The position numbers and the translations under genes were made by a program. A stretch of 64,000 bases of DNA from Escherichia coli (lineage in GTDB: Bacteria; Pseudomonadota; Gammaproteobacteria; Enterobacterales; Enterobacteriaceae), in the NCBI RefSeq assembly GCF_048403405.1, contig NZ_CP183129.1; one strand, 5' to 3'. Below, piece after piece: positions 12,057 to 62,577 of the stretch. Every line of letters begins with the position of its first letter. Within the stretch, counting starts at the first letter, position 1. The notes under the pieces were generated by a model that saw only the letters and a list, made by a program, of their open reading frames with translations, made no database searches and was not told the DNA's origin.

Positions 12057-15000
12057 TCAGCTGATACTGATGCCTGCGGTGGCTTTCTTCATCACCACAA
12101 CCAGCAAATCGCTGATACTTGCTGTGGGATACCAGTTATTCACCAGCCATGCTGACACCGAAAACTCCAGCGTCATGTGGCCGCGACCAGCTGGCATATC
12201 AATAACACCACTGTAAATCAGCGTATTATCCAGCGCGGTACGGTTATAAATTTCAGCACCGTTTTTCCGTACTATCAGGCGGCATGACGAATAAATATCG
12301 TTATTCTCCCGCTCATGTTTAGCGCCGCTGAATGCCACCGCCGGAATAACAATTTGCCTGTCAAAAGGCTGATCGTCATAAATCCTGACGGTAATGGTCC
12401 CTGATGGCCACCGCTCCGGTGCCCGGGAGTCCCGCGGAAAAGCCTTACCCACTGTTTTGACTATATCGCCTTCAATCTGGTTGGCTGACAGTTTCCCCTT
12501 AATCTGACAGTTCTCATTAATTGTGACATTGTTGAGCGTCCCGGCGTTCGCATTCACACTGCCACTGATATCTGCATTTTTAGCGGTCAGTTTTCCGTCC
12601 GGTGTCAGGGAAAATGCCGGAGGATTACCGCCGCTGGTAATGGTGGGAGCCGTCAGGCGTTTCAGGAACACGTCGTTCATGAATATCTGATCGCCCTGAC
12701 CAACAAACATCGGCTTTGTGTTGCCATTCGCAGGATTAATCATCGCAATCCTGTCTGCCGCCAGCAGCACCTGACTCTGCATTCCTGCTGGCGTATTCTC
12801 AATACCGGCACCGATACCCGCAATATAAAGGCGTCCGTCCTGCATCTGCTGCAGCTTCACAGCCCACATGCTGTTCAGATTATTATTTGTATCAACCTGA
12901 ACCTTCTGTATCTGCTGGATTGCCGCACTCTGATTTTCCAGTTTTTTATTGACGGTCTGCGTGATTTCATTGCTGACATCCGTAATGGACGTCCTGATTT
13001 CAGCCAGGTCAGGCGCAAGCTGACCGTTATCAATCTGCGTCCACAACTCCTGAGCCAGATGGGTTTTCCCTATCTCTCCTTTGAAAAAATTCAGATAGCC
13101 GGATGCATCATCACTCGGCTGGCCAACAGCCTCCACAAATGCCGATTTGCCAACGGTGTTCACACTGCGGATGTAAAAATAATAATCATGGCCCGGTTTG
13201 ATATTGATACTGGCAGCTATCCAGTACAGCGCCGAGCCAAGATAGCGGGCTGCGGTTTCAACCTGCCTGATATCCGCAATCCGCTTTTCCGAGAACCAGA
13301 ACTCAAACTGTACCGTCGGGTCATACACCGCAAGACGCGGGACCGCCGTTATCTGAAAATAGCCCGGCGTCAGCTCAATCCGCGACGGTGCTGCCGGTGC
13401 GGCAATCCGGAATGTGGTGGTGGCAGGTTCACCCTGCTGGCCATAGCTGTTTATCGCCCGCACCGTCAGGGTGTATTCCCCCAGCGGCAGGCCGCTGAAA
13501 CGGTGCTCCGTGTCTGCGGTGATGGCGGTGGTCACCAGTCTGGCATCCGTTCCCTTACCACTGGTCAGGCGCAGACTGAAGCGCACACCCTTCACCACCC
13601 GCGGCGTGTCCCATTTCGCCTGCGCCAGATACTGTCCGTCAGCTGCGCTCACCTCCACCGTCAGGTGCTGCACTGCCGGTGGGATGACGCTGTTCAGGGA
13701 ACCTGACTGCGGCTCAAAGCGGGCACCGTTATCCACGATGGCTTCTTTTTCCGGTACGTGCTGCACCGCCGTGATGGCAAAGGTGCCGTCCGTGTTTTCC
13801 CGGACGGAGACACAGCGGAACAGGCGACGGCGCAGTGACGGCAGGGAGAGTCCCCACACCCCGTATGTCTCCACACCATCAGGCAGGGTACTGACCTGTA
13901 TCCGGTCCGGCGCGGGGTGTTCGGTGATGTCCACACTCACCGGCTTACCGCTGCCGTTAATCAGGTTCACCGTGGCGGCACCGGTCTCCGGAAGTGTCAC
14001 TTCACGGTCCAGCGTCAGGGTGCGGGTGGCAGCATCAATGGACAGGACACGTCCGCCGGTCAGGGTCCCGGCATAGTCGTTATCACAGATTTCAATGATG
14101 TCACCGGGTGTGTGCCGCAGCCCCTGAGACCCGAGCGTGAAATCCACCGTCTGCGTTTCCAGCAGTTCGGTCTTTATCACCCACAGTCCGGCACGGTGGG
14201 CCTGACCGCGGCTGGTACAGCCGAACGCGTCCATCTTCAGCAGGTTGCGTCCGTAGCGCAGTATGGCTTCCGGGTCTTCCACCAGTTCCGTGGAGGTCTG
14301 CCAGCCGTTCTGCGGGTCGGTGTAATTCACCTCCACCGCCGTGTGCCGGTCCTTCAGGGCACTGAAGCTGTAGCGGAATCCCACGCCGTTATCATCCACC
14401 ACCACATCGCTGTTGGTGTACGGCCACACCACATCCGACGGGCGGTCCTGAACGAACGTCAGCGTCTGACCGTTCCATACCGGCATACAGCGCATCGCAG
14501 AGCAGAAATCACTGAGAACGTCCCACGCCTTACGCTGTTGTGCCAGGTACGCATTAAAGGTCATCCGCGGCTCGGTCCCCCCGAAACCATCCGGGACCGT
14601 CTGGTCGCAGTACTGCCCGATGGCATACAGCGCCCACTTGTCCACATCCGCCGCCCCCAGACGTTTTCCCATGCCGTAGCGCGGGTGAGTCAGCATGTCC
14701 CACAGGCACCAGGCCGGGTTGTTGCTGTATGCCGGTTTCAGACTGCCGTCCCAGATACCACTGTACGTGCGTTTTTCCGGGTCATAGTTTGACGGCACCT
14801 GGATGATGCGACCGCGGATATGGTAGTTCACCGTCATCTGCTGGCCGCCGAACTGCTCCGCATCCACCTGCAGCCCCACAATGGCCGTGTTCGGGTAGCA
14901 CTGTTTCACATCGATGATTTCGGTGTATGACGACCACAGCGTCTTATTCTGCAGCTGGTCCGTGGTGCTGTCCGCCGTCTCCCTGACCATCCGGATGTTA

Positions 15001-15530
15001 AAGGGCCGGGGAGGCAGATTATCCAGAATCACCGAGGCCAGGAACTGCGAGGTGGTCTTGCCGTTAATGGTGACATCCTTTTCCGTCACCCAGCGGCCAT
15101 TACGCTGTAACTGAATCAGAATCCGGACAGAGGAAGGATTACGGTCGCCCTTTGACGTGGTCTGCACCAGTGACTGCACCCCGAAGGTAACCCGCAGGCG
15201 GTCAATGTTCGCGGACGTAATGGTGCGCGTCACCGGTTTTGCCTTCGTCACTTCCACGCCCAGTCCGGTTTCAGCACCGGAGGACTCAAAGCCTTCCGGT
15301 GGTGTCTGCTCCTGCTCCCCGGCGCGCCAGACCGCCGTCACACCGTGTATCACGGGATTACCGTCCGTGTCCGTCAGCGGGGTTTTGTTCACCAGGATAC
15401 TCTGCAGTCCCTTCACCGGACCTTCTATCGGTCCCTCACCAATCGCATCAATCACGCTCATCATCTGCGTGGATTTGAGATTATCCTTCGCCTCACGAGG
15501 CGTGTGTGCCTTACCGCCACCTTTTCCCAT
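12057..15530 (-). CDS. J: Tail tip / host specificity protein J
   Basis: 1157 aa, lambda gpJ-like throughout ([22 protein letters not shown]...). Confidence 0.9.
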
Positions 15531-15636
15531 ACAGCCTTCCCCTGAATAAATTAACCGCCACTTGCCATTCCGTACAGAAGTCGGATATCCTTCGCCCGAA
15601 AAGCATGAAACACATTTCTGCCATGCTAAAGAGAAA

Positions 15637-15668
15637 CCCCGGTATCAGCAGATACCGGGGTTTTCTTT
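15637..15668. terminator. Symmetric hairpin (possible bidirectional terminator) in the I-J intergenic insertion
   Basis: ccccggtatc-agca-gataccgggg followed by TTTTCTTT on + and by TTTCTCTTT on the - strand. Confidence 0.5.
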
Positions 15669-15735
15669 CATGCCCACCGATAATCCTGTTGGTTAAAACC
15701 GGTAATGGCATAAAAATTCTGAATATCTTCACATT

Positions 15736-15763
15736 TTCACAAACTGACTGTGGCGCGTATAAT
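15736..15763 (+). promoter_or_regulatory. Sigma70-like promoter in the I-J gap
   Basis: -35 TTCACA, 16 bp spacer, perfect -10 TATAAT. Confidence 0.45.
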
Positions 15764-15769
15764 TTCTCT

Positions 15770-15866
15770 GCGTTAATTTTTTTGTCGTGATATAAGAATA
15801 ATTCCTTACACTTAATCTTCGTAACTCTCCCGCAGTTCCTGTCCGCGATCACTGCGGGATTTTTTT
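15770..15866 (+). ncRNA. Candidate small RNA (~100 nt) between promoter and intrinsic terminator, antisense to the tail operon
   Basis: No ORF with start codon; ends in hairpin cccgcag...ctgcggg + T7 at 15829-15867. Confidence 0.3.
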
Positions 15867-15873
15867 ATTCTTT

Positions 15874-16554
15874 TTACCCCTGCCGCCCGATAACCACGAC
15901 CTTTCCGCCCCCGCCTTCATCACGGGTGCTGATGTCCTGGGATATACGGCGGGAGCCAACCAGCATTTCCCCGTAAGGCACCGGCATCGGGTTCCCCTGG
16001 GCAATCATGTTATCCAGTGAGGAAAAGTACGTGTTCTGTCTGCCGTTATCCGTTGCGCGGTAATCCGGTGTTTTTGCCTTCGGGGCCAGCATCTGGGCCA
16101 CACCGCCCAGAATCATGCTGGCTCCAAGTGAAAACAGCATCGTGGTGGCAGAAAAACCACCGGCTGCCAGGGCTGAACCCCATAACGCCATTGATGCCCC
16201 GGCAGTGAAGAAAGAGCCCACGATGGCTGCCGCCCCCAGCACAATCTGCAGTCCACCCTTTCCGGCCCCGGCCAGTCGCGGCACAATGTGGATGACCGTT
16301 CCCTCACCCAGCTGTTCGTGAAGACGGGCGTACACCGCCTCCGGTGCCGTGTCATAACCGGCAATACGTATCTGGTACCAGCCTTCGTTCATCTGACGGC
16401 GAAAGCCCGGCATCTGCATCGACAGGGCGCGAATGGCTTCCGCTGCCGTGTTCACATACAGGCTGAGGCGGCGGCCAAATCGTTGTAAATCCCCGTGAAG
16501 GCAGATGCGTGCCAGTGGCGGTGACGCCAGACTGAATGCGTTCGTCGTTGCCAT
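15874..16554 (-). CDS. I: Tail assembly protein I
   Basis: 226 aa MATTNAFSLASPPLARICLHGDLQRFGRR..., lambda gpI-like. Confidence 0.9.
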   Translation of the reverse strand: MATTNAFSLASPPLARICLHGDLQRFGRRLSLYVNTAAEAIRALSMQMPGFRRQMNEGWYQIRIAGYDTAPEAVYARLHEQLGEGTVIHIVPRLAGAGKGGLQIVLGAAAIVGSFFTAGASMALWGSALAAGGFSATTMLFSLGASMILGGVAQMLAPKAKTPDYRATDNGRQNTYFSSLDNMIAQGNPMPVPYGEMLVGSRRISQDISTRDEGGGGKVVVIGRQG

Positions 16555-17185
16555 TTTTCGGAATACCTCTCCCGTTTACTCAGTTGTTCAGGCAGATGGT
16601 GAAGCAGCTCACCGTTGCCGCAGTAAATGGCGGCATGGTTCGGTACCAGCAGCACAGCAGAATATCGCCCGCCTGTGCAGAGGACAGGGGCACCCGGTAA
16701 AAGCCGGTGACCGCCATATTGTCCAGGTAAAGGTTCTGACCGTTGCGCCACCAGTCATCCTCGCGATGAAAATCCGGCATCTCAGTCCCCGCCAGATGAT
16801 AAGCATCCCGGAACAGCGTGTAACAGTCCGTCACCCCGTGCTCAAAGCGCCGTCCTGTCAGATGTGGCACACAGCGGAATTTGTGAATGTCACCCCGGCA
16901 GACCAGCCACCAGGGCAGTGCGCTTTTTATCTGCAGCCGCCGGTCAGCCTCGCTCAGCCAGGGCAGCCCACCGGGATGACTGTGGACCAGTGCCACAATC
17001 TCCCCCTGCATCTCTGCCCGCAGCCAGTCTTCCGGTGCGATACGAAAATACGCCTCCGGCTCTGCAGAAATATTCACACAAGGGATATACCACTCCCCCT
17101 CCGGCGTGCTTATCACGAAGCCGCACGACTCCGCAGGCGCACACCGCCGGGCATGCGCCAGAATCGCTGATTCAGTCTGTGTCAT
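16452..17185 (-). pseudogene. K: Tail assembly protein K (MPN/JAMM + NlpC/P60), frameshifted
   Basis: N-terminal part MTQTESAILAHARRCAPAESCGF...ALVHSHPGG... in one frame (track ORF 16580..17446), C-terminal part ...VPNHAAIYCGNGELLHHLPEQLSKRERY...IYNDLAAASACM in another frame (track ORF 16452..16751); junction near 16645 in a ctgctg repeat. Confidence 0.7.
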
Positions 17186-17195
17186 AAACCGGGAT

Positions 17196-17894
17196 TTACT
17201 GCGAAAGTTTATTAATGGAAAGGAAACCGCCAAAATTGCCGACATTCCTGCGCAGTTCACACCCGCGCATGCACTTGCTGCATCTGTCCTTACGGATATC
17301 CGTGGTGGGGTTGTCGAACTCATCCGCCACCGCAGGACCGTTATACCCACATTCATCTCCCCGGTAATCCCACATACAGGTGTTCGCCAGCATGATGCGA
17401 CCGGGAAACAGCGCCCCGTCCGTCTCGGTCGGTGTAGCCAGCACAAACGAGGCCGTCATGGCTGTCAGCTGCGACATCTGCTCCACCACCCAGCGGTCAC
17501 TCAGCTCCTGCTCCGGGTCCGCCTCCGGATTGCCCGCAACGAAATTCACCGCATCCAGAAAACGGGCATACACCCGGCGGCGGACCACCGTGGCCCCCAC
17601 CAGACTCTGCAGGTCTTCCGCCATCCCGGTGACCAGACCGAACAGATTGGACACCGTCAGCGACGGTCTGGCACTGCTGCCCCGGCCGTTCATCTCAAAG
17701 CCGCTGCCGTCAATCGGGTATGCCTCATACTTACGCCCCTGCCAGGTGACCGGCTCCCCTTTTTCATTCAGCTCATTACAGAAAAAATACCGCTCACCAC
17801 CCTGTACCGTCAGGTCGATTTCCCAGAGTACCACCCGCGGTGACTGCTCTGACTTAACCGACTCGTTCAGACTTTCTTCGCGAATATCCTGCAT
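17196..17894 (-). CDS. L: Tail tip assembly protein L
   Basis: 232 aa MQDIREESLNESVKSEQSPRVVLWEIDLT..., lambda gpL-like. Confidence 0.9.
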   Translation of the reverse strand: MQDIREESLNESVKSEQSPRVVLWEIDLTVQGGERYFFCNELNEKGEPVTWQGRKYEAYPIDGSGFEMNGRGSSARPSLTVSNLFGLVTGMAEDLQSLVGATVVRRRVYARFLDAVNFVAGNPEADPEQELSDRWVVEQMSQLTAMTASFVLATPTETDGALFPGRIMLANTCMWDYRGDECGYNGPAVADEFDNPTTDIRKDRCSKCMRGCELRRNVGNFGGFLSINKLSQ

Positions 17895-18223
17895 CAGTTC
17901 ACCACCTGCTTAAACTCCGCGCTGAACTCAACGCGCAACATCCCGACCCGTGCAGACCACCCGGCACAGGTCACCTTTATCTGCCGGTATGCATAGGGTG
18001 GCTTCCACAAAAATGCCTTCCAGCCACCGTGCTCTGCCAGGAACGCTTCCAGATGCCGGGCCTCCTCCCGGGTCACGGAAAGCGTCACCCTGTATGTTTT
18101 CAGGTCAGCATTCAGCCCTGCCGCCATACGCTGTGAGTACCCGTCACCAAAACGCACTTCACGCACCGATGGCTGCGAGTTCACCTCCATATCCGGCTTC
18201 ACTTTCCAGCGAAAGGTTTTCAT
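17894..18223 (-). CDS. M: Tail protein M
   Basis: 109 aa MKTFRWKVKPDMEVNSQPSVREVRFGDGYSQR..., lambda gpM-like. Confidence 0.9.
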   Translation of the reverse strand: MKTFRWKVKPDMEVNSQPSVREVRFGDGYSQRMAAGLNADLKTYRVTLSVTREEARHLEAFLAEHGGWKAFLWKPPYAYRQIKVTCAGWSARVGMLRVEFSAEFKQVVN

Positions 18224-20793
18224 CGACCGCTCCCTGATAACAGACCGCCATCACGCAACTGCAGCCGGAGTTCATCCTGTGCCCCCTTGCGGGCCATGTC
18301 ATACACCGCCTTCATCAGCTGCGACCCCGCCTGTCCGTTGATACCGTCGTTCTGAATCACCACGTGATTGTTCTGATTAAAATTAATACCTTCGGCCCGC
18401 CGCATCTGCGCCGGACTTCCGGCACCGCCGACATAACCACCTTCCGCATACCCGCGCATCAGACGATACAGGTTGCCGACACCAATCCGGCTGGTTGCCT
18501 CCTTCGTGAAGACAAATTCACCACGGTGAACAATCCCCGCTGGCTCATATTTGCCGCCGGTTCCCGTAAATCCTCCGGTCGCAAAATGGAAGTTCGCCGC
18601 CGCAGCCTGAATGGCTGTACCGCCTGACGCGGATGCGCCACCACCAACAGCCCCGCCAATGGCGCTGCCGATACTTCCGACAATCCCCACCATTGCCTGC
18701 TTCAGAAAAATCTCTGTCAGCATGGACAGCACAGAACGGGTGAAACCACGCCAGTTCTGCTCACTGCCGGTCAGCATCGCCGCCATATTCTGTGCAATAC
18801 CGTCAAAGGTCTGCGTGGCCGCGTTTTTAACCTGCGAAAAACTGTCCGTCGCACTTTCCGCCCACTCGCCCCAGCCGGACTTCATCCCGGCCATCCAGCT
18901 TCCACGAAGCTGCTCCTCCGCAGACCAGGTGTTCTTCAGTGCCGATGTGGCCTTCGCCAGCGCAGCCGGATTATCACCGTACACCTCACGAAGGCGCTGC
19001 TCTTCCGACTCCCGCTGCGCCTGACGGTCAGTGAGGCCGCGGGCTTTTGCGCTGATTGCCGCCTGCTTCGCGCTCTGCTGCTGTTCAAACCGCGCCGCCT
19101 GCTGTGCCAGCTCATTCAGCCGCTTCTGGTGTTCTATCTTGTCGCCCAGCTCAGCCAGCTGGCGTTTGTACTCCAGCGTTTCTTTCTCATGGGCCAGCAG
19201 GGATTTTTCCTGCTCAGATAACTGCCGTTTCGTGGCGGCCTCTTTCAGGATCACATACTGATTTTCCGCTTCCCATAAATCCCGGCGCTGCTGGCTGATT
19301 TTCTCATTCACACCGCTGTGTTTTTCCAGCGTCCTGAGCTCGGTTTCAAGCGCCAGCATGGCTGCATGCGCCCGGTCTTCCTGGCGCTCACCGGCAGACA
19401 CCTTCACACCTGACGGCTTTTTCAGCGTCGATTCATAATCCTTTTTTGCCGACGCCATCAGCGTGTTGTAATCCGCCTGCAGGATTTTTCCGTCTTTCAG
19501 GGCCTTATTCAGCTCTTTCTGACGGGCGGTATATTTATCCAGCGGCGTCTGCAGGCGCTCATACGCCTTCTGCGCCTCTCCGGTATACTTCAGCTGTGAC
19601 GCCTCACGCTCAGCCCGGTCCCTTGCCGCCAGTTCACCGGCTTTTTCCATATCCGACTGCAGCGTGGCCGCTGCCAGACCCAGACGGGCATTTTCCCGGT
19701 CATCCCATGCCCCCTGAAGGTTCGCACGAAAAGAGGAGGTCTTTCCCCGGCGCTGGCTCCGGCTCTGGTACCACTGCCATTTTTTATCCGCCTCATCAAA
19801 TGCCTTCTGCGCACTGGCGAGCATATCCGCTGAGGATTCAGGACGACCGATATCCAGAATGGCATCCCACATCGATTTGAATGCCTTCCCTGTTTTATCC
19901 GCCCAGGTCTCCAGTGTTCCCATGTTTTCTTTCAGGCGACGGGTCTGCTCATCAAAGCCTTTCGTGGCGATATCGTTCGCCGCCTGCAATGCCCCGGCCT
20001 CGTCTCCGGAACGCTGCAGCTGTGCAACATACGCAATCTGCTCTGCCGTCACGTTACGGAACTGGCGCGCCATCGCCATCAGTCCCGACGTCGGGTCAGT
20101 GGTCAGCTTCCCGAAGGCTTCAGCGACTTTATCCACCTCCACACCGGATGCAGACGCAAAACGCGCGACACTCTGGTTGATGGCATCAAACTGTTCACCA
20201 CCACGCACACCGGCATTCATCAGGGCTGCCAGTGACTCTCTCGCCTGGTTAAACGTCAGCCCTGCTGCCTGCCCGGCTCTTGAGAGAGTCAGCATACGAT
20301 CGGCAGTCAGTCCGGACTGATTACCGGAAAGAACCAGGGTTTTATTAAACGCTGAAAGCGTGGAATCTCCCTGGTACCAGGCGTACACCAGCGCACCTGT
20401 CGCCACCGCCAGCGAGGTGACCCCGACCATCGGCAGGGTGATCGCACCGGCGAGCCCCCTGAACATGGGGATCATCCCGCCGAAGGAGTCCTTCACCTGA
20501 CCGCCCTGTTGCAGCAGGATCAGCCAGGGATTCTGACCACCGGCAAGCTGCGTGGCGATATCCGTAAACTGTGCGGGCAGGGTTCGCATGGCCGCTTTAT
20601 ACTGCCCGACGGAAATCCCGGCTTTTTGTGCAGCCAGCGCCTGGCGGCTCAGGCCCTGTTCAACAGCACTGGCGGTTTTTCTGGCGTCGGTATCCAGACC
20701 TGAAAAATGACGCCTTACCCGGCTCATCTGCTCATCGAAACGGACAGCATCCAGACTCAGGTCAATAACAAGATCACCAACCGGCTGGGACAT
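18220..20793 (-). CDS. H: Tail tape measure protein H
   Basis: 857 aa, coiled-coil-rich, lambda gpH-like; position between M and G-T. Confidence 0.9.
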   Translation of the reverse strand: MSQPVGDLVIDLSLDAVRFDEQMSRVRRHFSGLDTDARKTASAVEQGLSRQALAAQKAGISVGQYKAAMRTLPAQFTDIATQLAGGQNPWLILLQQGGQVKDSFGGMIPMFRGLAGAITLPMVGVTSLAVATGALVYAWYQGDSTLSAFNKTLVLSGNQSGLTADRMLTLSRAGQAAGLTFNQARESLAALMNAGVRGGEQFDAINQSVARFASASGVEVDKVAEAFGKLTTDPTSGLMAMARQFRNVTAEQIAYVAQLQRSGDEAGALQAANDIATKGFDEQTRRLKENMGTLETWADKTGKAFKSMWDAILDIGRPESSADMLASAQKAFDEADKKWQWYQSRSQRRGKTSSFRANLQGAWDDRENARLGLAAATLQSDMEKAGELAARDRAEREASQLKYTGEAQKAYERLQTPLDKYTARQKELNKALKDGKILQADYNTLMASAKKDYESTLKKPSGVKVSAGERQEDRAHAAMLALETELRTLEKHSGVNEKISQQRRDLWEAENQYVILKEAATKRQLSEQEKSLLAHEKETLEYKRQLAELGDKIEHQKRLNELAQQAARFEQQQSAKQAAISAKARGLTDRQAQRESEEQRLREVYGDNPAALAKATSALKNTWSAEEQLRGSWMAGMKSGWGEWAESATDSFSQVKNAATQTFDGIAQNMAAMLTGSEQNWRGFTRSVLSMLTEIFLKQAMVGIVGSIGSAIGGAVGGGASASGGTAIQAAAANFHFATGGFTGTGGKYEPAGIVHRGEFVFTKEATSRIGVGNLYRLMRGYAEGGYVGGAGSPAQMRRAEGINFNQNNHVVIQNDGINGQAGSQLMKAVYDMARKGAQDELRLQLRDGGLLSGSGR

Positions 20794-25652: not shown

Positions 25653-27157
25653 TCATGGCATGGCCATGAGCATTTTCACGCCCGCATCACCGTCTTCTGA
25701 CGCCTGTGACACGCCCCCCTGGACCGCAGCCGGTGAATGGTTCGCCATGAAATGTTCAAACAGGGCGGTTGTGGATGCAGAGACCGGTTCTGCCTTACCT
25801 GATCCCGCAGCCAGCACAGCCCGGGCGCTCTCCACAGTCATTCCCGGGCAGGCAGCCAGCTGTTCAGCCTGCGCCTCAGCCCCTTTTGCCTCATCCAGTG
25901 CCATGATCTGATCACGGAGTGATGGTCCGGCATTCGCCTGCGGTGAAGCAGCCAGGATCGGGCGGGCTTTTTCCACCGTCATCTCCGGCATCGCCGCCAG
26001 CGTTGCCGCCAGTTGTTCACGACCGTTCGCTTCTTCACACGCCATAATGCGATCGGCTTCACTCTGTGCGGATGCCACCGGCTGCTGCGGTGCCGCCGCG
26101 GCCAGAATCGCCCGGGCCTGTTCAACGCTCATGCCCTGTTGCCCTGCCAGCATCGTGGCAAGCTGTTCACGTCCTTTCGCTTCCTGGCATGTCAGGATCC
26201 CCATCACTCGCTGGTTCTCCTGCACGGCGGCTTCCGTTGCAGTTAATTGCGGCATAGTGCCTCCTCTGACATTACTGTTCAGCGCCGTGGCCATCACACT
26301 GATGGCATCCGACGCATTGATTAATTCATCCGCCAGCCCGGCCTCAATGCCGGACTGACCTTCAAAAACGGCAGCCTCTGTTCCCGTGACCGCATCAACA
26401 GACAGACCGGTATACATCGCCACTTTTTCGGCAAACATCCGGCGCGCCACATCAATCCGCTGCTGCATGTCCTGGCGAACCTCTGCCGGCAACGCTTCAA
26501 ACTGATTGCCATCCACCTTGTGCGCTCCTGAGTAAATCAGCGTGATATCCACACCGGCCTGCGCCAGATGACCGGCATAGCTGACATGGCTCATCATCAC
26601 GCCAATGGAGCCGATACGGGATGTCTGGGTAACCAGCCGTCGGGAGCAGGCCGACGCCAGCAGCATGGCTGCAGAACAGGCCGTGTCATTACACAGTGCC
26701 CAGACCGGCTTCTGCTGCCGGAGGCGGTAAATCATGTCAGCGCAGTCAAACGCGCCGGCGGCCTGCCCGCCCGGACTGTCAATGTCCAGCAGTATGCCCC
26801 GCACCTGGCTATCTGCCATTGCCTGCTGAAGACAGGCGACAATGCCGTCATAGCCAGTCATTCCGGAAAATGGCCGCATCCCCCCAGCCGGTGCACCAGC
26901 GTGCCGGTCACCGGCAGTACCGCAATACCGTTCACCACCCGGTAAACACGGGCCGGTCGTTTACCTCCGGCCATGTACTCGTCCGTTTCAGCCAGCATCC
27001 CGGGAGCATCAAGCTGTACCTGCTGTTGCGGTACCGAAAGACTTGCTGCCCCCATCTCGCGCCCGAGCGCGCAAAAGAAAACCCGCGCATAGGCGGGCTC
27101 CAGAAGCAGCGGTTCATTGAATGCTGCGGCAATAATGTGTGAAAGATTACGTCTCAC
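25653..27157 (-). pseudogene. C: Prohead protease/scaffold C (with nested Nu3), frameshifted
   Basis: N-terminal 99 aa ORF (26858..27157) ...NEPLLLEPAYARVFFCAL...VNGIAVLPVTGTLVHRLGG then premature stop; rest in another frame (25653..26879) MRPFSGMTGYDGIVACLQQAMADSQVRGILLDIDSPGG...; the shift is at a C6 run at 26881-26886 (seven C would restore the frame). Confidence 0.75.
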
Positions 27158-36971: not shown

Positions 36972-37199
36972 GAATCCTCCCGGGCGGGATAATGTTGTGA
37001 GTCAGATAAGGAGCAGGCTGAAGTCCGGAAGTTACAGGACAATGGCAGAAGGGAGACTACAGCCCGCAATTCGAAAAAGACCGCGCAGTTGCGCAGAGTG
37101 ATTACTATGGGGTATTATTCGCCAGCTGAAATATTACTTCACGTTTTATTGTTTATTCCTTGCCGCCCGCGTCTCCCAGCGCGGGCTTTTTTTGTCCAT

Positions 37200-37440
37200 A
37201 AGAAAGCCCCTCCGGAGAGGGGCTAAAGCCGCGTATCTGTATCATCATGCACATGGTGCCGGGTGCCTCCCGGTGAGTTCAGCCCGGTGCCACTAAACCC
37301 GCGTCATTCTCGTTTTGATAATCAGAGATTATACCGTCACCAGTCGCCCCTCCGCTCAGGGGGATTCACCATGCGAAATTTTTTTAACAAATGCCCAGTC
37401 TGACAGGCAACTGTCAACTTACTGAATTGTGAGCAACATA
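37200..37440. repeat. Structured repeat copy 1 (~240 bp) in the tRNA-to-nanS spacer
   Basis: Shares blocks aaagcccctccggagaggggct, catggtgccgggtgcctcccggtga, gcccctccgc.cagggggattcaccatgc, ctgaattgtgag with copy 2. Confidence 0.75.
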
Positions 37441-37685
37441 GCATTTAACGGGGAACCTGTTTTCTGCAGTAAAAAGGCCCACCGGAGCGGATGGGCCTGG
37501 AAGGATAGCGGTCATGTGATGCCGGTTTCCCGGTAACTCAGCACCGGTATCTGAGTCAACGTTTTCTCTACTGGGTCATTTCCGATACGCCCTGCCTGCT
37601 GACAGGCTTTCATCACATCTGAAAATATAGCACCCTGACTGATACTGTAGTACCTAAGGTTCCAGAAACTGTGATGTATCCGGCA

Positions 37686-37905
37686 CAGAAAAGCCCCTCC
37701 GGAGAGGGGCTGGAGAGTGGCGCTATGTGCCATTGCATGGTGCCGGGTGCCTCCCGGTGAATTCAGTACCAGCACCTGAATCCGCGATTATCCCATATAC
37801 CTACTCGCTGATTGCCCCTCCGCACAGGGGGATTCACCATGCCAGTTTCTTTTAACAAACTCCCCGCAAACCAGACAACAGTCAACCGCCTGAATTGTGA
37901 GACAT
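37686..37905. repeat. Structured repeat copy 2 (~220 bp)
   Basis: Paralogous to 37200-37440 with the same conserved hairpins. Confidence 0.75.
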
Positions 37906-37946: not shown

Positions 37947-38023
37947 TGGCGCGTTGTACTGGATTCGAACCAGTGACCGATTGCTTAGAAGGCAATTGCT
38001 CTGTCCGGCTGAGCTAACAACGC
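37947..38023 (-). tRNA. argO: tRNA-Arg (anticodon TCT)
   Basis: Clean cloverleaf read by hand: acceptor gcgttgt/acaacgc, D-stem gctc/gagc, anticodon loop cttctaa, T-loop ttcgaat, 3' CCA encoded. Confidence 0.85.
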
Positions 38024-38036
38024 AGGATACAGATAA

Positions 38037-38113
38037 TGGACCGCCTTCGGGGACCCGAACTCCGCGCAACCAGCTTCGAAGGCTGGCGCTCTTTCCTGAT
38101 GAGCTAATGGCGG
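38037..38113 (-). tRNA. tRNA-like gene, possibly tRNA-Arg (anticodon TCG), imperfect stems
   Basis: Cloverleaf can be drawn (anticodon loop cttcgaa) but acceptor and T stems each have a mismatch and the T-loop lacks the usual A58. Confidence 0.5.
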
Positions 38114-38120
38114 TATGTGA

Positions 38121-38196
38121 TGGTGGCCCTTGCTGGATTTGAACCAGCGACCTGGCGATTATGAGTCGCTCGCTCTCACCACTGAGCTAAAGGGCC
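38121..38196 (-). tRNA. ileZ: tRNA-Ile2-type (anticodon CAT)
   Basis: ggccctttagctcagtggtgagagc...ctcataa...ggttcaaatccagcaagggccacca; closely resembles ileX-type tRNA. Confidence 0.85.
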
Positions 38197-45001: not shown

Positions 45002-45157
45002 TTACTCCTCAGGTTCGTAAGCTGTGAAGACAGCGACCTCCGTCTGGCCGGTTCGGATTCGTACCTCGCAGAGGTCTTTCCTCGTTACCAGTGCCGTCAC
45101 AATGACGGTTAAACAGATGACGATCAGGGCGATTAACATCGCCTTTTGCTGCTTCAT
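45002..45157 (-). CDS. hokD: Hok/Gef-family type I toxin (HokD/RelF-like, 51 aa)
   Basis: MKQQKAMLIALIVICLTVIVTALVTRKDLCEVRIRTGQTEVAVFTAYEPEE matches HokD; track ORF has an in-frame upstream extension. Confidence 0.85.
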   Translation of the reverse strand: MKQQKAMLIALIVICLTVIVTALVTRKDLCEVRIRTGQTEVAVFTAYEPEE

Positions 45158-45394
45158 AGCCTGCTTCCCCTTGCCTTTCGGCACGTAAGAGGCTAACCTA
45201 CATTTGTGAGACATAGATTGGGCCTCAGATTAATGTTAAGCGTCTTGCAGGACGCGAAATGTTAACTGGGGCTTTTCTCTATCTGCCTTTCAGTGTTCAT
45301 GCCTGAGACAGATAGCCTCAAGCACCCGCAGCCATTCTACTTAACTCACGTCACCTCGCCAATATGAAATCAATCAGAAAGGTGATCCATAAAA

Positions 45395-46081: not shown

Positions 46082-46135
46082 GAAAATAGCACAGAGTGTA
46101 GCATCAGAGTGTACTGACCCCAAAAAGTTGGACAG

Positions 46136-46987
46136 TTAAACACGAGGCATATAGGTCTGATTCCGATATTCAATTGGAGTCAGACCTTTTAATTTCAGGC
46201 TAATTCTTCTGCTGTTGTAGTATTCAATATATTCCGTAACAGCATCCTTCAGTTCGCTTATATTACTGAACTCATCAAGATAAAAACACTCCGACTTTAA
46301 GGTTCCAAAGAAACACTCCACCACAGCATTATCCAGACAATTGCCTTTTCTGGACATGCTTTGTTTAATACCATGTTCTTTAAGGATATTTTGATATCTT
46401 CTCATACGATACTGCCATCCCTGGTCAGAGTGCAGAACAGGATGCTCGTGAGGATTAAGCTTTTTGAATGCCTGATCGAGCATATTCTCAACCATGTTCA
46501 TCACTGGTCTTTCCGAAAGGCTGTAAGAAATAACTTCGTTGTTGAAGAGATCTATTACTGGAGACAAATACAGCTTGCGCCCATTGACTGCAAATTCAGT
46601 AACATCGGTAACCCACTTCTCGTTTGGCCGCGTAGCCTTGAAATCTCTTTGGAGAACATTAGGGGCGGTTTGCCCTACCTCTCCTCTGTAAGAGCGGTAT
46701 CGCTTGACCTTAATCGCTGCTTTAAGTGAGAGGGTTCCCATCAGGCGCTGAACAGCTTTATGGTTAATCTGTTTCCCTTCTCGATGAAGAGACAGCGTTA
46801 CCCTACGGTATCCGTATCGGCCTCTATTCTCGTGATAAATCTCACTAATACGCTTTTTAACGTCCGCATACTTGTCAGGCTTGCTGAGAGCCTTTAGATG
46901 ATAATAAAACGTACTGCGCGGTATCTCCGCAGCCCTGAGAAGCTCATCAAGAGGATAAAACTGCCTTAGCTCGTTGAGTACTTTCAC
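46136..46987 (-). CDS. insK: IS150 transposase OrfB (DDE domain)
   Basis: 283 aa; ...[48 protein letters not shown]... Confidence 0.9.
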
Positions 46988-47505
46988 TTTTTCGTGGGAT
47001 GAGCTAAGGCTTTCAGCTTTTTTAGATACATAAGCCGCGTTTCAAGAAATCGAACTTGCCTTTCAAGATCCTCAATGCGTCGGTCTTTTGACAGCTCCAA
47101 TGCTGATGCCGCTTTTTCTGGATCAACTGATATTGCAATGTTTCTTTTGGTGCCAATCTTGAGCGCGCGTAAACCAGCTTCTCCGCGCTCTTCATAGACC
47201 TTCAGCCACCTGGCTACAGAACCACTACCAGCAAGCATAAAGTGAGCAGCAGCCTGATTAAGGGACATGTGCTGCTCGATCACAGCTTTCACGACCTTAA
47301 TACGCAACTCTGGATCAGCACTAACGCCTTTAGGTTTGGGAATTAAACCTTTTTCTCCATGTTTTTCATAGAGGGCAACCCATGTCCTGACCTGGGTTCG
47401 GGGGACACCAAAACGTGCCGAGATGATCCTGTAACCATCATCAGTTGTGAAGTAGTGATTCACGACTTCAAGGCGCTTTTCAAAAGGGTATTTTGGCTTT
47501 GACAT
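46984..47505 (-). CDS. insJ: IS150 transposase OrfA (HTH)
   Basis: 173 aa MSKPKYPFEKRLEVVNHYFTTDDGYRIISARFGVPRTQVRTWVALYEKHG...; 4 nt overlap with orfB. Confidence 0.9.
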   Translation of the reverse strand: MSKPKYPFEKRLEVVNHYFTTDDGYRIISARFGVPRTQVRTWVALYEKHGEKGLIPKPKGVSADPELRIKVVKAVIEQHMSLNQAAAHFMLAGSGSVARWLKVYEERGEAGLRALKIGTKRNIAISVDPEKAASALELSKDRRIEDLERQVRFLETRLMYLKKLKALAHPTKK

Positions 47506-47680
47506 ATTAGGGGCTATTCCATTTCATCGTCCAACAAAATGGGTGCAGTACAGAGCAGGGCTATCGGGAATATATGTCTAAATCTGGTAATATCTGGTTT
47601 TGACGCAAAGCGGACAACCACGCTGGCTCTACCCTGCGCCATGAAAATGTCAATTCACATCTGAACTAATGCTCTTTAAT

Positions 47681-53529: not shown

Positions 53530-53587
53530 TTTCTGGTGACATTTGGCGGTATCAGTTTTACTCCGTGACTGCTCTGCCGCCCTTTTT
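53530..53587 (+). ncRNA. dicF: DicF small RNA (cell-division inhibitor sRNA)
   Basis: tttctggtgacatttggcggtatcagttttactccgtgactgctctgccgccc + T-run matches the remembered DicF sequence; lies upstream of dicB. Confidence 0.7.
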
Positions 53588-58127: not shown

Positions 58128-58172
58128 TGACCAGTTTTGCAGAAGAGTTTTGCAGAGGTTTTGCAGAGAAAA

Positions 58173-58826
58173 TTAAAAACGATATCCTGCCGAGAACATA
58201 AACACCCACGGGTCAAGGCGTACATTGTCGCTATAACTGCCTTTAGCCAGTTTACGACCATCAGATTTATACTTCGCGGTGGTATCGATATCCATGTACC
58301 AGACTGACATGTTAACCAACCAGTCACGGTTAATCAGATAATCAACCCCCACCTGCCCGGCAGCTCCCCAGGAATCTTTCAGACTGAGATCGGAAAGCCC
58401 CGCCTCTTTGCCATGATCGTTAAATCCATTATCAAAGAAGGTGGTGTAGTTAATACCTGCCCCAACGTAAGGACGGAATTTGCTGCTGGCATCACCAAAA
58501 TACCACTGCGCCATCAGTGTTGGCGGCAGATGATGAACGGTTGCAATATCGCCGGTCGCCCGGGTGCCGATTTTATGGCGGAACGGCGTCGCTGCCAGCA
58601 ATTCCACACCAATGTTATCGGTCGCCATATAAGTAAACGTCAGGCCCAGTTGCGTGTTATTGGTCACGCTGAATCCACCCAGACTTCCTAACGTACCACC
58701 AGCACCTTCTGTTGGACGTACGGTTGCAGACCCTGCACGCATAAAAAATTCGCCTGCTTCATGCGCATAGGCACTGCCAGAGAGAAGAGTTGTTACTGCC
58801 AAAGCCGCCACTGTTAACTTTTTCAT
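58173..58826 (-). CDS. ompW: Outer membrane protein OmpW with phage-supplied variant C-terminal segment
   Basis: 217 aa; N-terminal 183 aa canonical OmpW; C-terminal ...TTAKYKSDGRKLAKGSYSDNVRLDPWVFMFSAGYRF differs from the chromosomal remnant at the left junction (...TTANYKLGGAQQHDSVRLDPW...). Confidence 0.9.
   Translation of the reverse strand: MKKLTVAALAVTTLLSGSAYAHEAGEFFMRAGSATVRPTEGAGGTLGSLGGFSVTNNTQLGLTFTYMATDNIGVELLAATPFRHKIGTRATGDIATVHHLPPTLMAQWYFGDASSKFRPYVGAGINYTTFFDNGFNDHGKEAGLSDLSLKDSWGAAGQVGVDYLINRDWLVNMSVWYMDIDTTAKYKSDGRKLAKGSYSDNVRLDPWVFMFSAGYRF
58277..58301. repeat. attR core region (shared with 5954-5978)
   Basis: cggtggtatcgatatccatgtacca repeated at both prophage ends. Confidence 0.6.
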
Positions 58827-59182
58827 ATCCGCTCCGTCGTTATGGTTATAAAAACGTGACGAATATACCTACATTGGAGTAACAAATGATCCTACATAGG
58901 TCACATTACATATGATAATTCACCATTTATTGATCTGGATTAATTTAGAAGTTGCATTGAGAATCCTGGTTAATGTGATTTAAATCAATTTTTAAATATT
59001 TTCGCTACGCAAATATTAACTCGACCGCCACTTGCCGCGATTTGCCCACGTCTGAAGGCCAGCAATTACCTCCGCTTTACAAAGATATGCTTTTCCATAC
59101 AAGACCTGATGCTGCCACCCGAGGCTTAACCAGGGTACAATTGCCCGCTAATTAACACCTGCATAAAACTCAAGGAGAGTGC

Positions 59183-59926
59183 ATGTCTATCACGGCGCAG
59201 TCCGTATACCGTGACACCGGAAATTTCTTCCGTAATCAATTTATGACCATTCTGTTGGTATCGTTGCTATGTGCGTTTATCACAGTGGTGTTAGGGCATG
59301 TTTTCTCACCCAGTGATGCACAGCTTGCGCAGCTCAATGACGGCGTGCCCGTTAGCGGCAGTAGTGGGTTGTTCGACCTGGTTCAGAATATGTCACCGGA
59401 ACAGCAACAAATTTTGCTGCAGGCTTCAGCGGCGTCCACTTTTTCAGGATTAATCGGTAACGCCATTCTCGCCGGAGGCGTAATATTAATTATCCAGCTG
59501 GTGTCTGCGGGTCAGAGAGTCAGTGCGCTGCGAGCTATTGGTGCCAGTGCGCCGATATTGCCAAAGTTATTTATTCTGATTTTTCTGACTACCCTTTTAG
59601 TACAGATTGGCATCATGCTGGTGGTCGTTCCGGGAATTATCATGGCCATTTTACTGGCCCTGGCACCGGTGATGTTGGTACAGGACAAAATGGGCGTTTT
59701 TGCCTCGATGCGTAGCAGTATGCGGCTGACTTGGGCGAATATGCGTCTGGTGGCACCCGCAGTACTGAGCTGGTTGCTGGCAAAAACACTGTTGCTGCTT
59801 TTTGCCTCTTCTTTTGCCGCATTAACCCCGGAAATTGGTGCCGTACTGGCGAACACCTTGAGCAACCTGATTTCAGCCGTACTGCTCATCTATCTGTTCC
59901 GCCTGTATATGTTGATTCGCCAATAA
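59183..59926 (+). CDS. yciC: Inner membrane protein YciC (UPF0259)
   Basis: 247 aa multi-TM ORF, conserved position after ompW. Confidence 0.85.
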
Positions 59927-59955
59927 CCTTAAGCATTTGATTACGGAATCGTAAA

Positions 59956-60495
59956 ATGAAGCAGTTTCTTGATTTTTTACCGCTGGTTGTCTTTTTCGCG
60001 TTTTACAAGATTTATGACATCTATGCGGCTACTGCGGCGCTGATCGTCGCCACGGCGATTGTGCTTATATATAGCTGGGTTCGCTTTCGTAAGGTTGAGA
60101 AGATGGCCCTGATCACTTTTGTTCTGGTGGTCGTCTTCGGTGGCTTGACCCTGTTCTTCCACAATGATGAGTTTATTAAATGGAAGGTTACTGTCATTTA
60201 TGCCCTGTTTGCGGGTGCCCTGTTAGTCAGCCAATGGGTGATGAAAAAGCCGCTAATTCAGCGGATGCTGGGTAAAGAACTCACGCTGCCGCAACCGGTA
60301 TGGTCGAAGCTGAATCTGGCCTGGGCTGTTTTCTTTATCCTTTGCGGTCTTGCAAACATCTACATCGCATTCTGGCTGCCGCAAAATATTTGGGTCAACT
60401 TTAAAGTCTTTGGCCTGACCGCCCTTACCTTAATCTTCACATTGTTAAGCGGTATCTATATCTACCGCCACATGCCGCAGGAAGATAAATCCTAA
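59956..60495 (+). CDS. yciB: Intracellular septation protein A (YciB)
   Basis: 179 aa multi-[36 protein letters not shown]... Confidence 0.85.
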
Positions 60496-60599
60496 CCAGA
60501 CTGCCAGTCCTTCGGGGCTGGCGCTGTATCTCCTCTGTTCTCCTCAGGAAAATCATAGTAGCATCGCGCCTGTGATTTTCCTTTTAAGTCGGTTTTACC

Positions 60600-60998
60600 A
60601 TGTCTACAACACATAACGTCCCTCAGGGCGATCTTGTTTTACGTACTTTAGCCATGCCCGCCGATACCAATGCCAATGGTGACATCTTTGGTGGTTGGTT
60701 AATGTCACAAATGGATATTGGCGGCGCTATTCTGGCGAAAGAAATTGCCCACGGTCGCGTAGTGACTGTGCGGGTTGAAGGAATGACTTTCTTACGGCCG
60801 GTTGCGGTCGGCGATGTGGTGTGCTGCTATGCACGCTGTGTCCAGAAAGGGACGACATCGGTCAGCATTAATATTGAAGTGTGGGTGAAAAAAGTAGCGT
60901 CTGAACCCATCGGGCAACGCTATAAAGCGACAGAAGCATTATTTAAGTATGTCGCGGTTGATCCTGAAGGAAAACCTCGCGCCTTACCTGTTGAGTAA
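60600..60998 (+). CDS. yciA: Acyl-CoA thioester hydrolase YciA (hotdog fold)
   Basis: 132 aa MSTTHNVPQGDLVLRTLAMPADTNANGDIFGGWLMSQMD... Confidence 0.85.
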   Translation: MSTTHNVPQGDLVLRTLAMPADTNANGDIFGGWLMSQMDIGGAILAKEIAHGRVVTVRVEGMTFLRPVAVGDVVCCYARCVQKGTTSVSINIEVWVKKVASEPIGQRYKATEALFKYVAVDPEGKPRALPVE

Positions 60999-61037
60999 TA
61001 ATCAAAAGCCTCCGGTCGGAGGCTTTTGACTTTCTGC

Positions 61038-61757
61038 TTACTGAATTTCGGTGGTGCCGTTAATTTTAAACAGGATATTCACCACAATCCCACTGCCTGG
61101 CTTACCCGGCTCATAACGCCATCTGCGCATCGCATTTTTCACCTCACGCTCAAACATATTCGCAGGCTTGGCTGAGAGGATTTGTACGTTATCCACGCGA
61201 CCATCCGGCGTGACGTCAAATTTAACTTTAACCTGCCCTTCAATGCGCAATGCCTGTGCTCGTGCCGGATACTGCGGCTGATTACGGCTTAATGCGCGTG
61301 GTCCTGAAGCCACACTGGTAACCGGCTTGCTGGTTGCAGCCGTCGCCGTACTTGATGTCGGGCGTGCCGGTGCCGTATTTTCAAACGGTGATGCCGGACG
61401 CGACTCTACGGGTTTGACATCGCGTTTTGGCTGTTCCTGTACCTTTTTCACCGGCTTCGGTTTTGGCTTAGGTTTCGGCTTCGGCTTTTCAATGACCACC
61501 GGTGCTTCTTTTGGCGGTTCGGGGATCGGCTCAGGTTCCGGTTCTGGCTCTACCACCGGCTCCGGTGGCGGCTGAACGGCTTGTGGCGGTTCGAGATCCG
61601 CAGGCGCAACCATCGTGACAGAAATTGGCTGCGCAGGCGCAGGTAGTTCAATAACCTGATGTACCGAGGTATAGAGCAGACCCGCCACAACAGCACCATG
61701 AATGCAGACCGAAAGTAACGTCGGCCAGGGGAAGCGGCGAGGTAAATCAAGGGTCAT
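61038..61757 (-). CDS. tonB: TonB energy transducer
   Basis: [29 protein letters not shown]..., Pro-rich (EP)n/(KP)n spacer, C-terminal domain; start set at MTLDL (track ORF extends to 61808). Confidence 0.9.
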
Positions 61758-61980
61758 TGAAGTCATAATCATTTCAGTAGAAAAACCAGGCCTCGATTTT
61801 AAATGCAAATAGCAATCATATTCAATAAGGCAAGACGATCAGGATCAGTGAAAATGTCATTTTTGGCGTAATTGACCTTACTTTATGCATGGTCTTAACA
61901 AAGACATCATCTTTCCGTTGCAGATCTTCGCCCTTTCAAATAACGTACTTTACAACTTTCCCGAACAAGGAGTTGTGCCC

Positions 61981-62277
61981 GTGTTGTATGTTATTTACGC
62001 TCAAGACAAAGCTGATAGCCTCGAAAAACGCCTTTCCGTTCGTCCGGCACATTTAGCACGTTTACAGTTACTGCATGATGAAGGTCGTTTGTTGACAGCT
62101 GGTCCAATGCCAGCGGTAGACAGTAACGATCCAGGGGCTGCGGGATTTACTGGCTCAACCGTTATTGCTGAATTTGAATCGCTGGAAGCAGCTCAGGCCT
62201 GGGCCGATGCTGACCCGTACGTAGCGGCAGGAGTCTATGAACACGTTTCAGTGAAACCATTTAAGAAAGTGTTCTGA
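61981..62277 (+). CDS. yciI: YciI-like protein (98 aa, likely GTG start)
   Basis: (V)[41 protein letters not shown]...; track ORF extends upstream to 61885. Confidence 0.7.
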
Positions 62278-62577
62278 ATAGAGATTCAATATTTAAGGGC
62301 ACGGTTTTTGCAACCGTGTTCTTGTTTGGCCTTTCCTTATAGGTCGGTCAGTGCATTCCCCCCCACAAGCAGATAATAACTTTATCTGTATTTCTTTATA
62401 TGATGTGAGCATATTCAGGAAAAATGCCCTTTCCTGACGCAGAGTTGCTCACTCAAAACCTTTGATTACTGCGGATAAAGTCATCTACTATTGTTTAACA
62501 CATTCACGCGCTGCATGTATGTTCAGAAAATGTGCACGCTAAGATAATTAAACAAAATTGTGGTTACAGAGGTATCA

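What the first reader, a model, noticed from the sequence alone, without database searches (positions are those of the whole stretch)
16640..16660. Tail assembly gene K split between two frames
The N-terminal (MPN/JAMM, HSHP) and C-terminal (NlpC/P60-like) parts of K are in different frames with the junction in a ctgctgtgctgctgg repeat, consistent with a 3n+1 bp deletion by slippage. Together with C this argues the prophage is cryptic, unless both are sequence errors.
Basis: seen in the sequence. Interest (0 to 1): 0.4.

Follow-up and report, generated by a model that had tools for sequence, protein, structure and literature searches.

The report
Ten-base deletion breaks prophage gene K
A lambda-like prophage sitting in the E. 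coli ompW gene has lost ten bases from its tail-assembly gene K, which truncates the protein and probably stops the prophage making working tails; this is ordinary prophage decay.

Summary
Gene K (minus strand, 17185-16452) is read in two frames, and the junction lies between window bases 16648 and 16647. Alignment to intact K genes shows one clean 10-bp deletion (TTGGTGCTTC on the gene strand). Putting those bases back gives exactly the 247-aa K protein of the nearest relative. The product is now 179 native residues plus 22 aberrant ones.

The break is not between the two domains. It lies inside the NlpC/P60 domain (Pfam residues 111-224), just before the conserved His motif. The JAB/MPN domain stays intact.

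I found no direct repeat that would explain slippage. One end of the deletion lies in a short quasi-palindrome.

This allele was found nowhere else: not in 4,472 K copies from 5,426 complete E. coli genomes, GTDB representatives, metagenomes or IMG/VR.

Apart from this deletion, a 1-bp deletion in head protease gene C (a C7 run shortened to C6) and an IS150 insertion, the ~50-kb prophage has no substitution of its own against prophages in unrelated strains. Assemblies of the same host lineage have an empty ompW site. The prophage is therefore a recent arrival that became defective recently.

The deletion is probably real (about 0.8), but an assembly error cannot be excluded. Interest is low.

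The parts
16649..17185 (-). K codons 1-179 in the native frame. They hold the whole Prok-JAB/MPN domain (HSHPGGLPWLSEAD motif) and the first ~70 residues of the NlpC/P60 domain, including the presumed catalytic Cys (VTDCYTLF).
   Evidence: Identical to K of strain 2D over this stretch.
16647..16648 (-). Deletion junction. Ten bases (TTGGTGCTTC on the gene strand, GAAGCACCAA on the + strand) that are present in all relatives are missing between these two bases.
   Evidence: Alignments A1 and A3; pairwise comparisons; restoration test.
16580..16648 (-). Out-of-frame tail of the truncated K product (WYRTMPPFTAATVSCFTICLNN, 22 codons) and its TAA stop at 16582-16580, 25 nt upstream of the ATG of I.
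16452..16646 (-). Remnant of the K 3' end (residues 184-247 plus the stop codon), now in a different frame and lacking its own start. It holds the conserved His motif PNHAAIY and LLHH of the NlpC/P60 domain.
15874..16554 (-). Tail assembly gene I (226 aa). It overlaps the old K 3' end by 103 nt as in lambda, has its own Shine-Dalgarno sequence (GGAGAGG), and is not altered.
   Evidence: phrog_32 and phrog_4244.
17196..17894 (-). Tail gene L, immediately upstream of K. Intact.
25653..27157 (-). Head protease/scaffold gene C (S49 peptidase; 501 aa in relatives). It is frameshifted by loss of one base from a C7 run, now C6 at 26880-26885 on the + strand.
46110..47552 (-). IS150 copy of 1443 bp (orfA 173 aa, orfB 283 aa) with a GAG target duplication. 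It is inserted in the early-right operon, upstream of Q, and is absent from the otherwise identical prophage of strain MSB1_7C. This is the third lesion of the prophage.

Best explanation
This is a real, lineage-private 10-bp deletion in tail-tip assembly gene K of a lambda-like prophage integrated in ompW. The deletion shifts the frame at codon 180. The product keeps the JAB/MPN domain but loses the last 68 residues, replaced by 22 aberrant ones. The lost part carries the strands of the NlpC/P60 fold that hold the conserved His residues. In lambda, gpK is required for tail assembly although it is not found in the virion. The prophage on its own should therefore be unable to make functional tails, and the C frameshift should also block head maturation. 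Shown here: the deletion, its size and position, the truncated reading frames, the domain positions, and the absence of the allele elsewhere. Inferred: that the lesion abolishes K function, that it arose after lysogenisation, and that it is not an assembly error.
For: The 10-bp gap is the only difference in K against strain 2D, and restoring it reproduces the intact protein. The conserved His motif downstream of the break aligns to the His motif of solved NlpC/P60 enzymes. Synteny H-M-L-K-I-J matches lambda and annotated relatives. Papers state that gpK is required for tail assembly and is absent from virions (PMC12617516; PMC10721106). The sequence quality of the window looks good. Bases 1-5983 are 100% identical to two independent assemblies of the same host lineage, including two 1-bp deletions in yciF. 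Of 72 homopolymer runs of 6 nt or more in the prophage, 71 agree with relatives. A 10-bp loss outside any homopolymer is not a typical read or polishing error (my own knowledge). Recent origin is supported by three results: the window has no substitution of its own over ~50 kb against the strain 2D and MSB1_7C prophages, those strains have different chromosomal flanks, and same-lineage assemblies have an empty ompW site.
Against: The allele appears in no other sequence searched, so no independent assembly confirms it. Two frameshift indels with zero substitutions in 50 kb is an unusual ratio for neutral mutation, and it is what errors would also produce. The companion lesion in C sits in the longest G/C homopolymer of the prophage, a classic error site. 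No experiment shows that the NlpC/P60 part of K is essential.
Confidence: 0.78

Rival explanations
1. Assembly or consensus error. The true genome has an intact 744-nt K, and perhaps an intact C, and the prophage is fully functional.
For: No other genome, metagenome or viral contig carries the junction, and the truncated product is not on record. The prophage has no substitutions against relatives yet two frameshifts. There is a precedent: the 199-aa K of the lambda reference sequence results from one base that is present in most other lambda and lambda-derived records, including re-sequenced ones. The C lesion is a C7-to-C6 homopolymer change, also seen in 10 other assemblies.
Against: Ten bases lost outside any homopolymer is atypical for read or polishing errors (my own knowledge). 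The flanks match independent assemblies perfectly over 6 kb, including short-homopolymer frameshifts. All other homopolymer runs in 50 kb agree with relatives.
Confidence: 0.17
2. The deletion is real but not inactivating. Either the truncated K (JAB domain plus a partial NlpC/P60 domain) still supports tail assembly, or K is supplied in trans by another lambdoid prophage of the same genome, so infectious particles are still produced.
For: K is highly conserved, and E. coli genomes that have it carry a median of 2 copies and up to 10. Defective prophages are known to be rescued by recombination with related phages (title and abstract of PMC3945230). The biochemical role of the K domains is unknown.
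Against: The truncation removes about 40% of the NlpC/P60 domain, including the conserved His motif, so the domain cannot fold as a papain-like peptidase. All 4,472 K copies compared keep the single frame at this site, which points to purifying selection on the full length. No second K copy lies in this window, and the rest of the genome is unseen. Gene C is also broken.
Confidence: 0.05
3. A programmed frameshift or a deliberate two-gene arrangement of K.
For: None beyond the existence of two frames. Lambda tail genes G/GT do use programmed frameshifting (my own knowledge).
Against: Every relative has one ORF at this site. After the shift the frame stops after 22 codons, and this is the third frame, neither that of the K C-terminus nor that of I. 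The downstream fragment has no start codon in context.
Confidence: 0.005

Closest known systems
Bacteriophage lambda gpK (tail tip assembly protein K, 'TAPK'; JAB/MPN + NlpC/P60)
   Same: Same position in the H-M-L-K-I-J tail-tip cluster, about 92% mean column identity in the DNA alignment, the same two Pfam domains in the intact relative, and the same 103-nt overlap with I. This architecture was described by Iyer et al. 2006 (PMC1779556).
   Different: Here the gene is interrupted at codon 180 by a 10-bp deletion, so only the JAB domain and part of the NlpC/P60 domain can be made.
Intact K (WP_000194723.1, annotated 'C40 family peptidase') of the ompW-integrated prophages of E. coli strains 2D and MSB1_7C, and the related PPompW-type phages
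   Same: The E. coli 2D and MSB1_7C K genes are identical in DNA apart from the 10 bp, and the surrounding ~50-kb prophage has no substitution private to the window. The PPompW-type phage K genes are 98.4% identical with the gap counted.
   Different: Those copies are single 744-nt ORFs. They also have an intact C gene, and MSB1_7C, the one compared across that site, has no IS150.
Lesions in defective lambdoid prophages and lab phages (prophage decay in E. coli; the stf frameshift of lab lambda)
   Same: A small frameshifting lesion in a late morphogenesis gene of an otherwise complete lambdoid genome. The stf frameshift of lab lambda is mentioned in PMC10721106.
   Different: The stf lesion is tolerated because side fibres are dispensable. 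K is reported to be required for tail assembly.
The 199-aa K of the lambda reference sequence (J02459 / NC_001416)
   Same: K also appears split between two frames there. The first 45 codons are upstream in another frame.
   Different: That split is a single missing base near codon 46. Most other lambda and lambda-derived records, including re-sequenced ones, carry the base, so it is most likely a historical sequencing error. The lesion here is a 10-bp deletion at codon 180.

Membership tests
Lambda gpK / TAPK tail-tip assembly protein | Gene located between L and I in the H-M-L-K-I-J tail-tip cluster | tested here: met
   ORF map; annotated relatives; lambda itself.
Lambda gpK / TAPK tail-tip assembly protein | N-terminal JAB/MPN domain with the HxHx7Sx2D motif | tested here: met
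   Prok-JAB PF14464 at residues 3-105, E = 7e-15, on the intact relative. The window keeps these residues unchanged, including HSHPGGLPWLSEAD. There is a weak match to the solved MPN protein 2kks.
Lambda gpK / TAPK tail-tip assembly protein | Complete C-terminal NlpC/P60 (C40) peptidase domain in the same polypeptide | tested here: not met
   NLPC_P60 PF00877 covers residues 111-224 of intact K. The window's frame breaks at residue 180, and the His motif lies in another frame. The locus is therefore a K pseudogene, not a functional family member.
Lambda gpK / TAPK tail-tip assembly protein | Requirement for tail assembly without incorporation into the virion | not testable with these tools
   Taken from papers on lambda.
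Defective (cryptic) prophage | Inactivating lesion in at least one gene essential for particle formation | tested here: met
   K 10-bp deletion and C 1-bp deletion. That these genes are essential is taken from lambda genetics (and my own knowledge).
Defective (cryptic) prophage | Failure to yield plaque-forming phage on induction | not testable with these tools
   Needs induction and plaque assays.
Programmed ribosomal frameshift gene pair (as lambda G/GT) | Two-frame arrangement conserved in relatives, with the second frame continuing into a functional extension | tested here: not met
   Relatives have one ORF. The shifted frame stops after 22 codons.
Replication-slippage deletion between direct repeats | Deleted block flanked by, or including one copy of, a direct repeat (terminal microhomology) | tested here: not met
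   The gap has a unique placement with 0-nt terminal homology. No direct repeat of 6 nt or more lies within 120 nt, only the quasi-palindrome TGGTTCGGT/ACCGAAGCA that overlaps one end of the deletion.

The most novel reading that the evidence does not exclude
The prophage shows three disruptive events (a 10-bp deletion in K, a 1-bp deletion in C, and an IS150 upstream of Q) and not one substitution of its own across ~50 kb, in a host lineage whose relatives still have an empty attachment site. If all three are real, this could reflect rapid, non-neutral inactivation of a newly acquired prophage. That might be selection acting on the lysogen, or an indel/IS-biased mutational regime, instead of slow neutral decay.
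Probability: 0.1. Interest if true: 0.4.

Novelty: already known. Interest (0 to 1): 0.1.

Why it matters
The practical value is for annotation and strain characterisation. K should be annotated as a frameshifted pseudogene, and the ompW prophage should be scored as defective for autonomous particle production despite looking complete. The locus also serves as a caution. The same gene appears split in the lambda reference sequence because of one missing base, so a frameshift in K is not in itself proof of decay. Nothing here changes what is known about tail assembly or prophage biology.

Tried and rejected
1. I looked for the deletion allele elsewhere to confirm it independently. A 101-nt junction query against 5,426 complete E. 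coli genomes gave only gapped matches to the junction (top-ranked matches 91%; one partial match in the 95-99% band not examined; none at 100%). Exact junction patterns found nothing in GTDB representative genomes, JGI metagenomes or IMG/VR. Exact-product look-ups for the truncated K and the truncated C found nothing. I ran no positive-control scan with the intact junction in those three contig collections.

2. One phage record (ON470597) spanned 14 nt more than expected and looked like a second indel in K. It turned out to be a run of N.

3. PHROG phrog_24556 seemed to match the aberrant tail. On inspection it matches intact K better (E = 1e-45 against 3e-40), so it gives no evidence of a shared frameshift.

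4. Slippage between direct repeats was rejected for lack of any repeat or microhomology.

5. I considered a link to the adjacent GGTACC (KpnI) site, such as an engineered deletion. The site is intact and nothing else suggests engineering, so I dropped the idea. This is inference only.

6. Programmed frameshifting was rejected.

7. I did not predict a structure or run large protein searches, because the domain assignment was already clear.

8. The source genome could not be identified. It is not among the RefSeq complete E. coli genomes searched.

Full report
**What is at the coordinates**

The region carries a lambda-type tail-tip cluster on the minus strand:
- H, the tape measure gene, at 18220-20793
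- M at 17894-18223
- L at 17196-17894
- K at 16452-17185
- I at 15874-16554
- J at 12057-15530

Reading K from its ATG at 17185 gives MTQTES...HSHPGGLPWLSEAD...GDILLCC. The frame then runs into 22 unrelated residues and stops at 16582-16580. The normal K C-terminus (VPNHAAIYCGNGELLHH...AAASACM*) is readable in a different frame down to 16452. The third frame is closed.

**Size and nature of the lesion**

Megablast of the 735-nt K region against phage records gave full-length matches that all span 745 nt. Aligning the window with two annotated intact K genes (744 nt, 247 aa) shows one gap of exactly 10 nt: window ...CTGCTGTGCTGCT|GGTACCG... against ...CTGCTGTGCTGCT TTGGTGCTTC GGTACCG....

Against the ompW prophage of E. 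coli strain 2D this deletion is the only difference in K. Re-inserting the ten bases in silico reproduces that strain's K protein exactly. The break falls after gene nucleotide 538, so the product has 179 native residues plus 22 aberrant ones (201 aa). Residues 184-247 survive only as an untranslated remnant at 16646-16455.

**Where the break lies in the protein**

Alignments with solved NlpC/P60 enzymes (LytE and Tn916-type hydrolases) pair K's GDILLCCFGASVPNHAAIYCGNGELLHH with their GD...SHMGIYIGNN..IHA block. The conserved His motif is therefore just downstream of the deletion and is lost. Assigning the Cys in VTDCYTLF as the nucleophile is my inference from the family's usual DCSG pattern. 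The pairwise alignment is weak in that part.

Gene I keeps its own Shine-Dalgarno sequence and its ATG at 16554. The premature K stop lies 25 nt upstream of that ATG, in a frame that is neither the K C-terminal frame nor the I frame. I should be unaffected (inference).

**Mechanism of the deletion**

The gap has a single possible placement and no terminal microhomology. No direct repeat of 6 nt or more occurs within 120 nt of it. One end of the deletion lies in an 18-nt quasi-palindrome, TGGTTCGGT/ACCGAAGCA, centred on GGTACC. Simple slippage between repeats is therefore not supported. How the deletion arose remains open.

**Context: a recently acquired prophage with three lesions**

The window runs from trpD to yciE, then a ~52-kb prophage, then ompW-yciCBA-tonB-kch.

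Compared with the prophages of strains 2D and MSB1_7C, the window's prophage has no substitution of its own. The single SNP against MSB1_7C, at 11758, is derived in MSB1_7C, where lom is annotated with an internal stop; strain 2D agrees with the window there. The window differs by three events:
- the K deletion
- a 1-bp deletion that turns a C7 run into C6 at 26880-26885, in the S49 protease gene C
- a 1443-bp IS150-like insertion at 46110-47552 with a GAG target duplication

The chromosomal flanks differ from those strains: 96 SNPs in the trp side and 34 on the ompW side.

Window 1-5983 is 100% identical to two independent assemblies (GCA_014486155.1 and ENA ERZ27237676). That identity includes two 1-bp deletions in yciF. 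Both assemblies have an uninterrupted ompW and no prophage. Together this means the host lineage acquired the phage recently, and the three lesions most likely arose after that. It also shows that the window's sequence is of good quality.

**Real lesion or error?**

For a real lesion:
- A 10-bp loss outside any homopolymer is not a usual consensus error (my own knowledge).
- The flanks are perfect against independent assemblies.
- Of the 72 homopolymer runs of 6 nt or more in the prophage, 71 agree with relatives.

Against a real lesion:
- The junction was not found among 4,472 K copies in 1,582 of 5,426 complete E. coli genomes.
- It was not found in GTDB representative genomes, metagenomes or IMG/VR.
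- The truncated product is not on record, so there is no independent confirmation.
- Two indels with zero substitutions in 50 kb is not what the usual mutation spectrum predicts. From memory, substitutions outnumber small indels roughly ten to one in E. coli mutation-accumulation studies.

The C lesion is more ambiguous. It sits in the only G/C run of 7 nt or more in the relatives' prophage. The same C6 allele occurs in 10 other complete genomes of unrelated strains. That fits either a recurrent slippage hot spot or a recurrent homopolymer miscall.

I rate the K deletion as real at about 0.8.

**Consequence**

According to papers on lambda, gpK is required for tail assembly, and it was not detected or resolved in virions. 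Its JAB + NlpC/P60 architecture and its linkage to the ubiquitin-like gpI were described in 2006 (PMC1779556). The biochemical role of these domains is unknown.

A product that lacks the conserved His-bearing part of the NlpC/P60 fold is very likely non-functional for that domain (inference). If lambda genetics applies, the prophage cannot make tails by itself. If the C lesion is real, it cannot mature heads either. IS150 sits between the replication genes and Q, so it may also reduce late transcription (inference).

'Cryptic' is fair in the sense of defective for autonomous particle production. All other genes are intact, so the prophage could still excise, replicate and lyse. Rescue by a co-resident lambdoid prophage is also possible: E. 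coli genomes that carry this gene have a median of two K copies, and recombinational rescue of defective prophages is documented (PMC3945230).

**Comparison with what is known, and novelty**

This is a K pseudogene in a lambdoid prophage, a familiar kind of lesion. There is no new gene, no new mechanism and no unusual arrangement.

One precedent is worth noting. In the lambda reference sequence K is annotated as 199 aa because one base is missing near codon 46, and the first 45 codons lie upstream in another frame. Most other lambda and lambda-derived records, including re-sequenced ones, carry the extra base. The best-known 'split K' is therefore almost certainly a sequencing artefact, which is why the error caveat should stay attached to this finding.

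**Verdict**

Novelty: already known. Interest: about 0.1.

The only mildly unusual feature is the ratio of three disruptive events to zero substitutions. I rate a selective or mechanistic explanation for that ratio at about 0.1.

Noticed in passing
window 26880-26885 (gene C, 25653-27157, minus strand): The head protease/scaffold gene C (S49 peptidase) is frameshifted by a C7-to-C6 change. This run is the only G/C homopolymer of 7 nt or more in the relatives' prophage. The same C6 allele occurs in 10 other complete RefSeq E. coli genomes of unrelated strains, so it is either a recurrent slippage hot spot or a recurrent homopolymer miscall.
   Followed up: partly
window 46110-47552: A 1443-bp IS150-like element (orfA 173 aa, orfB 283 aa; ends TGTACTG...CAGTACA; GAG target duplication) is inserted between the DUF977 gene and the queH-like gene of the early-right operon, upstream of Q. 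It is absent from the otherwise identical prophage of MSB1_7C and may be polar on late gene expression.
   Followed up: partly
L007 (lambda NC_001416) 3634-3830, i.e. lambda 14133-14330: The lambda reference annotates K as 199 aa starting at MSPEDW. The 45 codons homologous to the N-terminus of the 247-aa K lie upstream in another frame because one base is missing (GGAGGC-TATTT). Most other lambda and lambda-derived records (KT232076, LC730321, PV340536, DE3, the imm21/imm434 hybrids, HK629/630) have the extra base, so the 199-aa K is probably an artefact of the 1982 sequence.
   Followed up: yes
window 4781 and 5110 (yciF, about 4755-5255, plus strand): yciF carries two 1-bp deletions (TTT to TT, TT to T) compared with other E. 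coli. Both are shared at 100% identity with independent assemblies GCA_014486155.1 and ERZ27237676, so yciF is a real lineage-specific pseudogene.
   Followed up: yes
window 1-5983 and 58171-64000; L008 and L009: Assemblies of the same chromosomal lineage have an uninterrupted ompW and no prophage, while the prophage is identical to those in strains with diverged flanks. This points to very recent acquisition. The trp-yciE flank is at most 98.6% identical to any of 5,426 complete RefSeq E. coli genomes, so the source lineage has no close match for this flank there.
   Followed up: partly
whole prophage, about 6000-58170: There are no window-specific substitutions against the strain 2D and MSB1_7C prophages, but two frameshift indels and one IS insertion. 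The only change on the MSB1_7C side coincides with an annotated internal stop in lom (window position 11758). The excess of disruptive events over substitutions is unexplained.
   Followed up: partly
window 15531-15873 (spacer between I and J): This 343-bp AT-rich spacer (38-40% GC) is also present in relatives, whereas lambda has 60 bp there. On the + strand, antisense to the tail operon, it holds a near-consensus promoter-like site (TTCACA-16-TATAAT, 15736-15763) and a terminator-like hairpin with a T run (15842-15858). This could be a small RNA or moron. No Rfam family matches.
   Followed up: partly
PHROG profiles matched by K and I: Some PHROG families join neighbouring tail genes. phrog_28576 covers K residues 37-240 followed by I residues 15-214 in a single 399-position profile. 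phrog_30 (544 positions) matches K only in its second half. Other PHROGs cover only the N- or C-terminal half of K. K-region genes therefore appear often to be fused or split in deposited phage annotations.
   Followed up: no
window 7671-7869, 37194-37403, 37681-37871, 45152-45327, 53531-53582, 37947-38196: Rfam matches above gathering score inside the prophage: IS009 RNA, two STnc100 copies, sok antitoxin RNA (next to hokD in the relative), DicF, and three tRNAs. ARAGORN calls the tRNAs Arg-tct, Arg-tcg and a CAT-anticodon tRNA that RefSeq annotates as tRNA-Ile.
   Followed up: no
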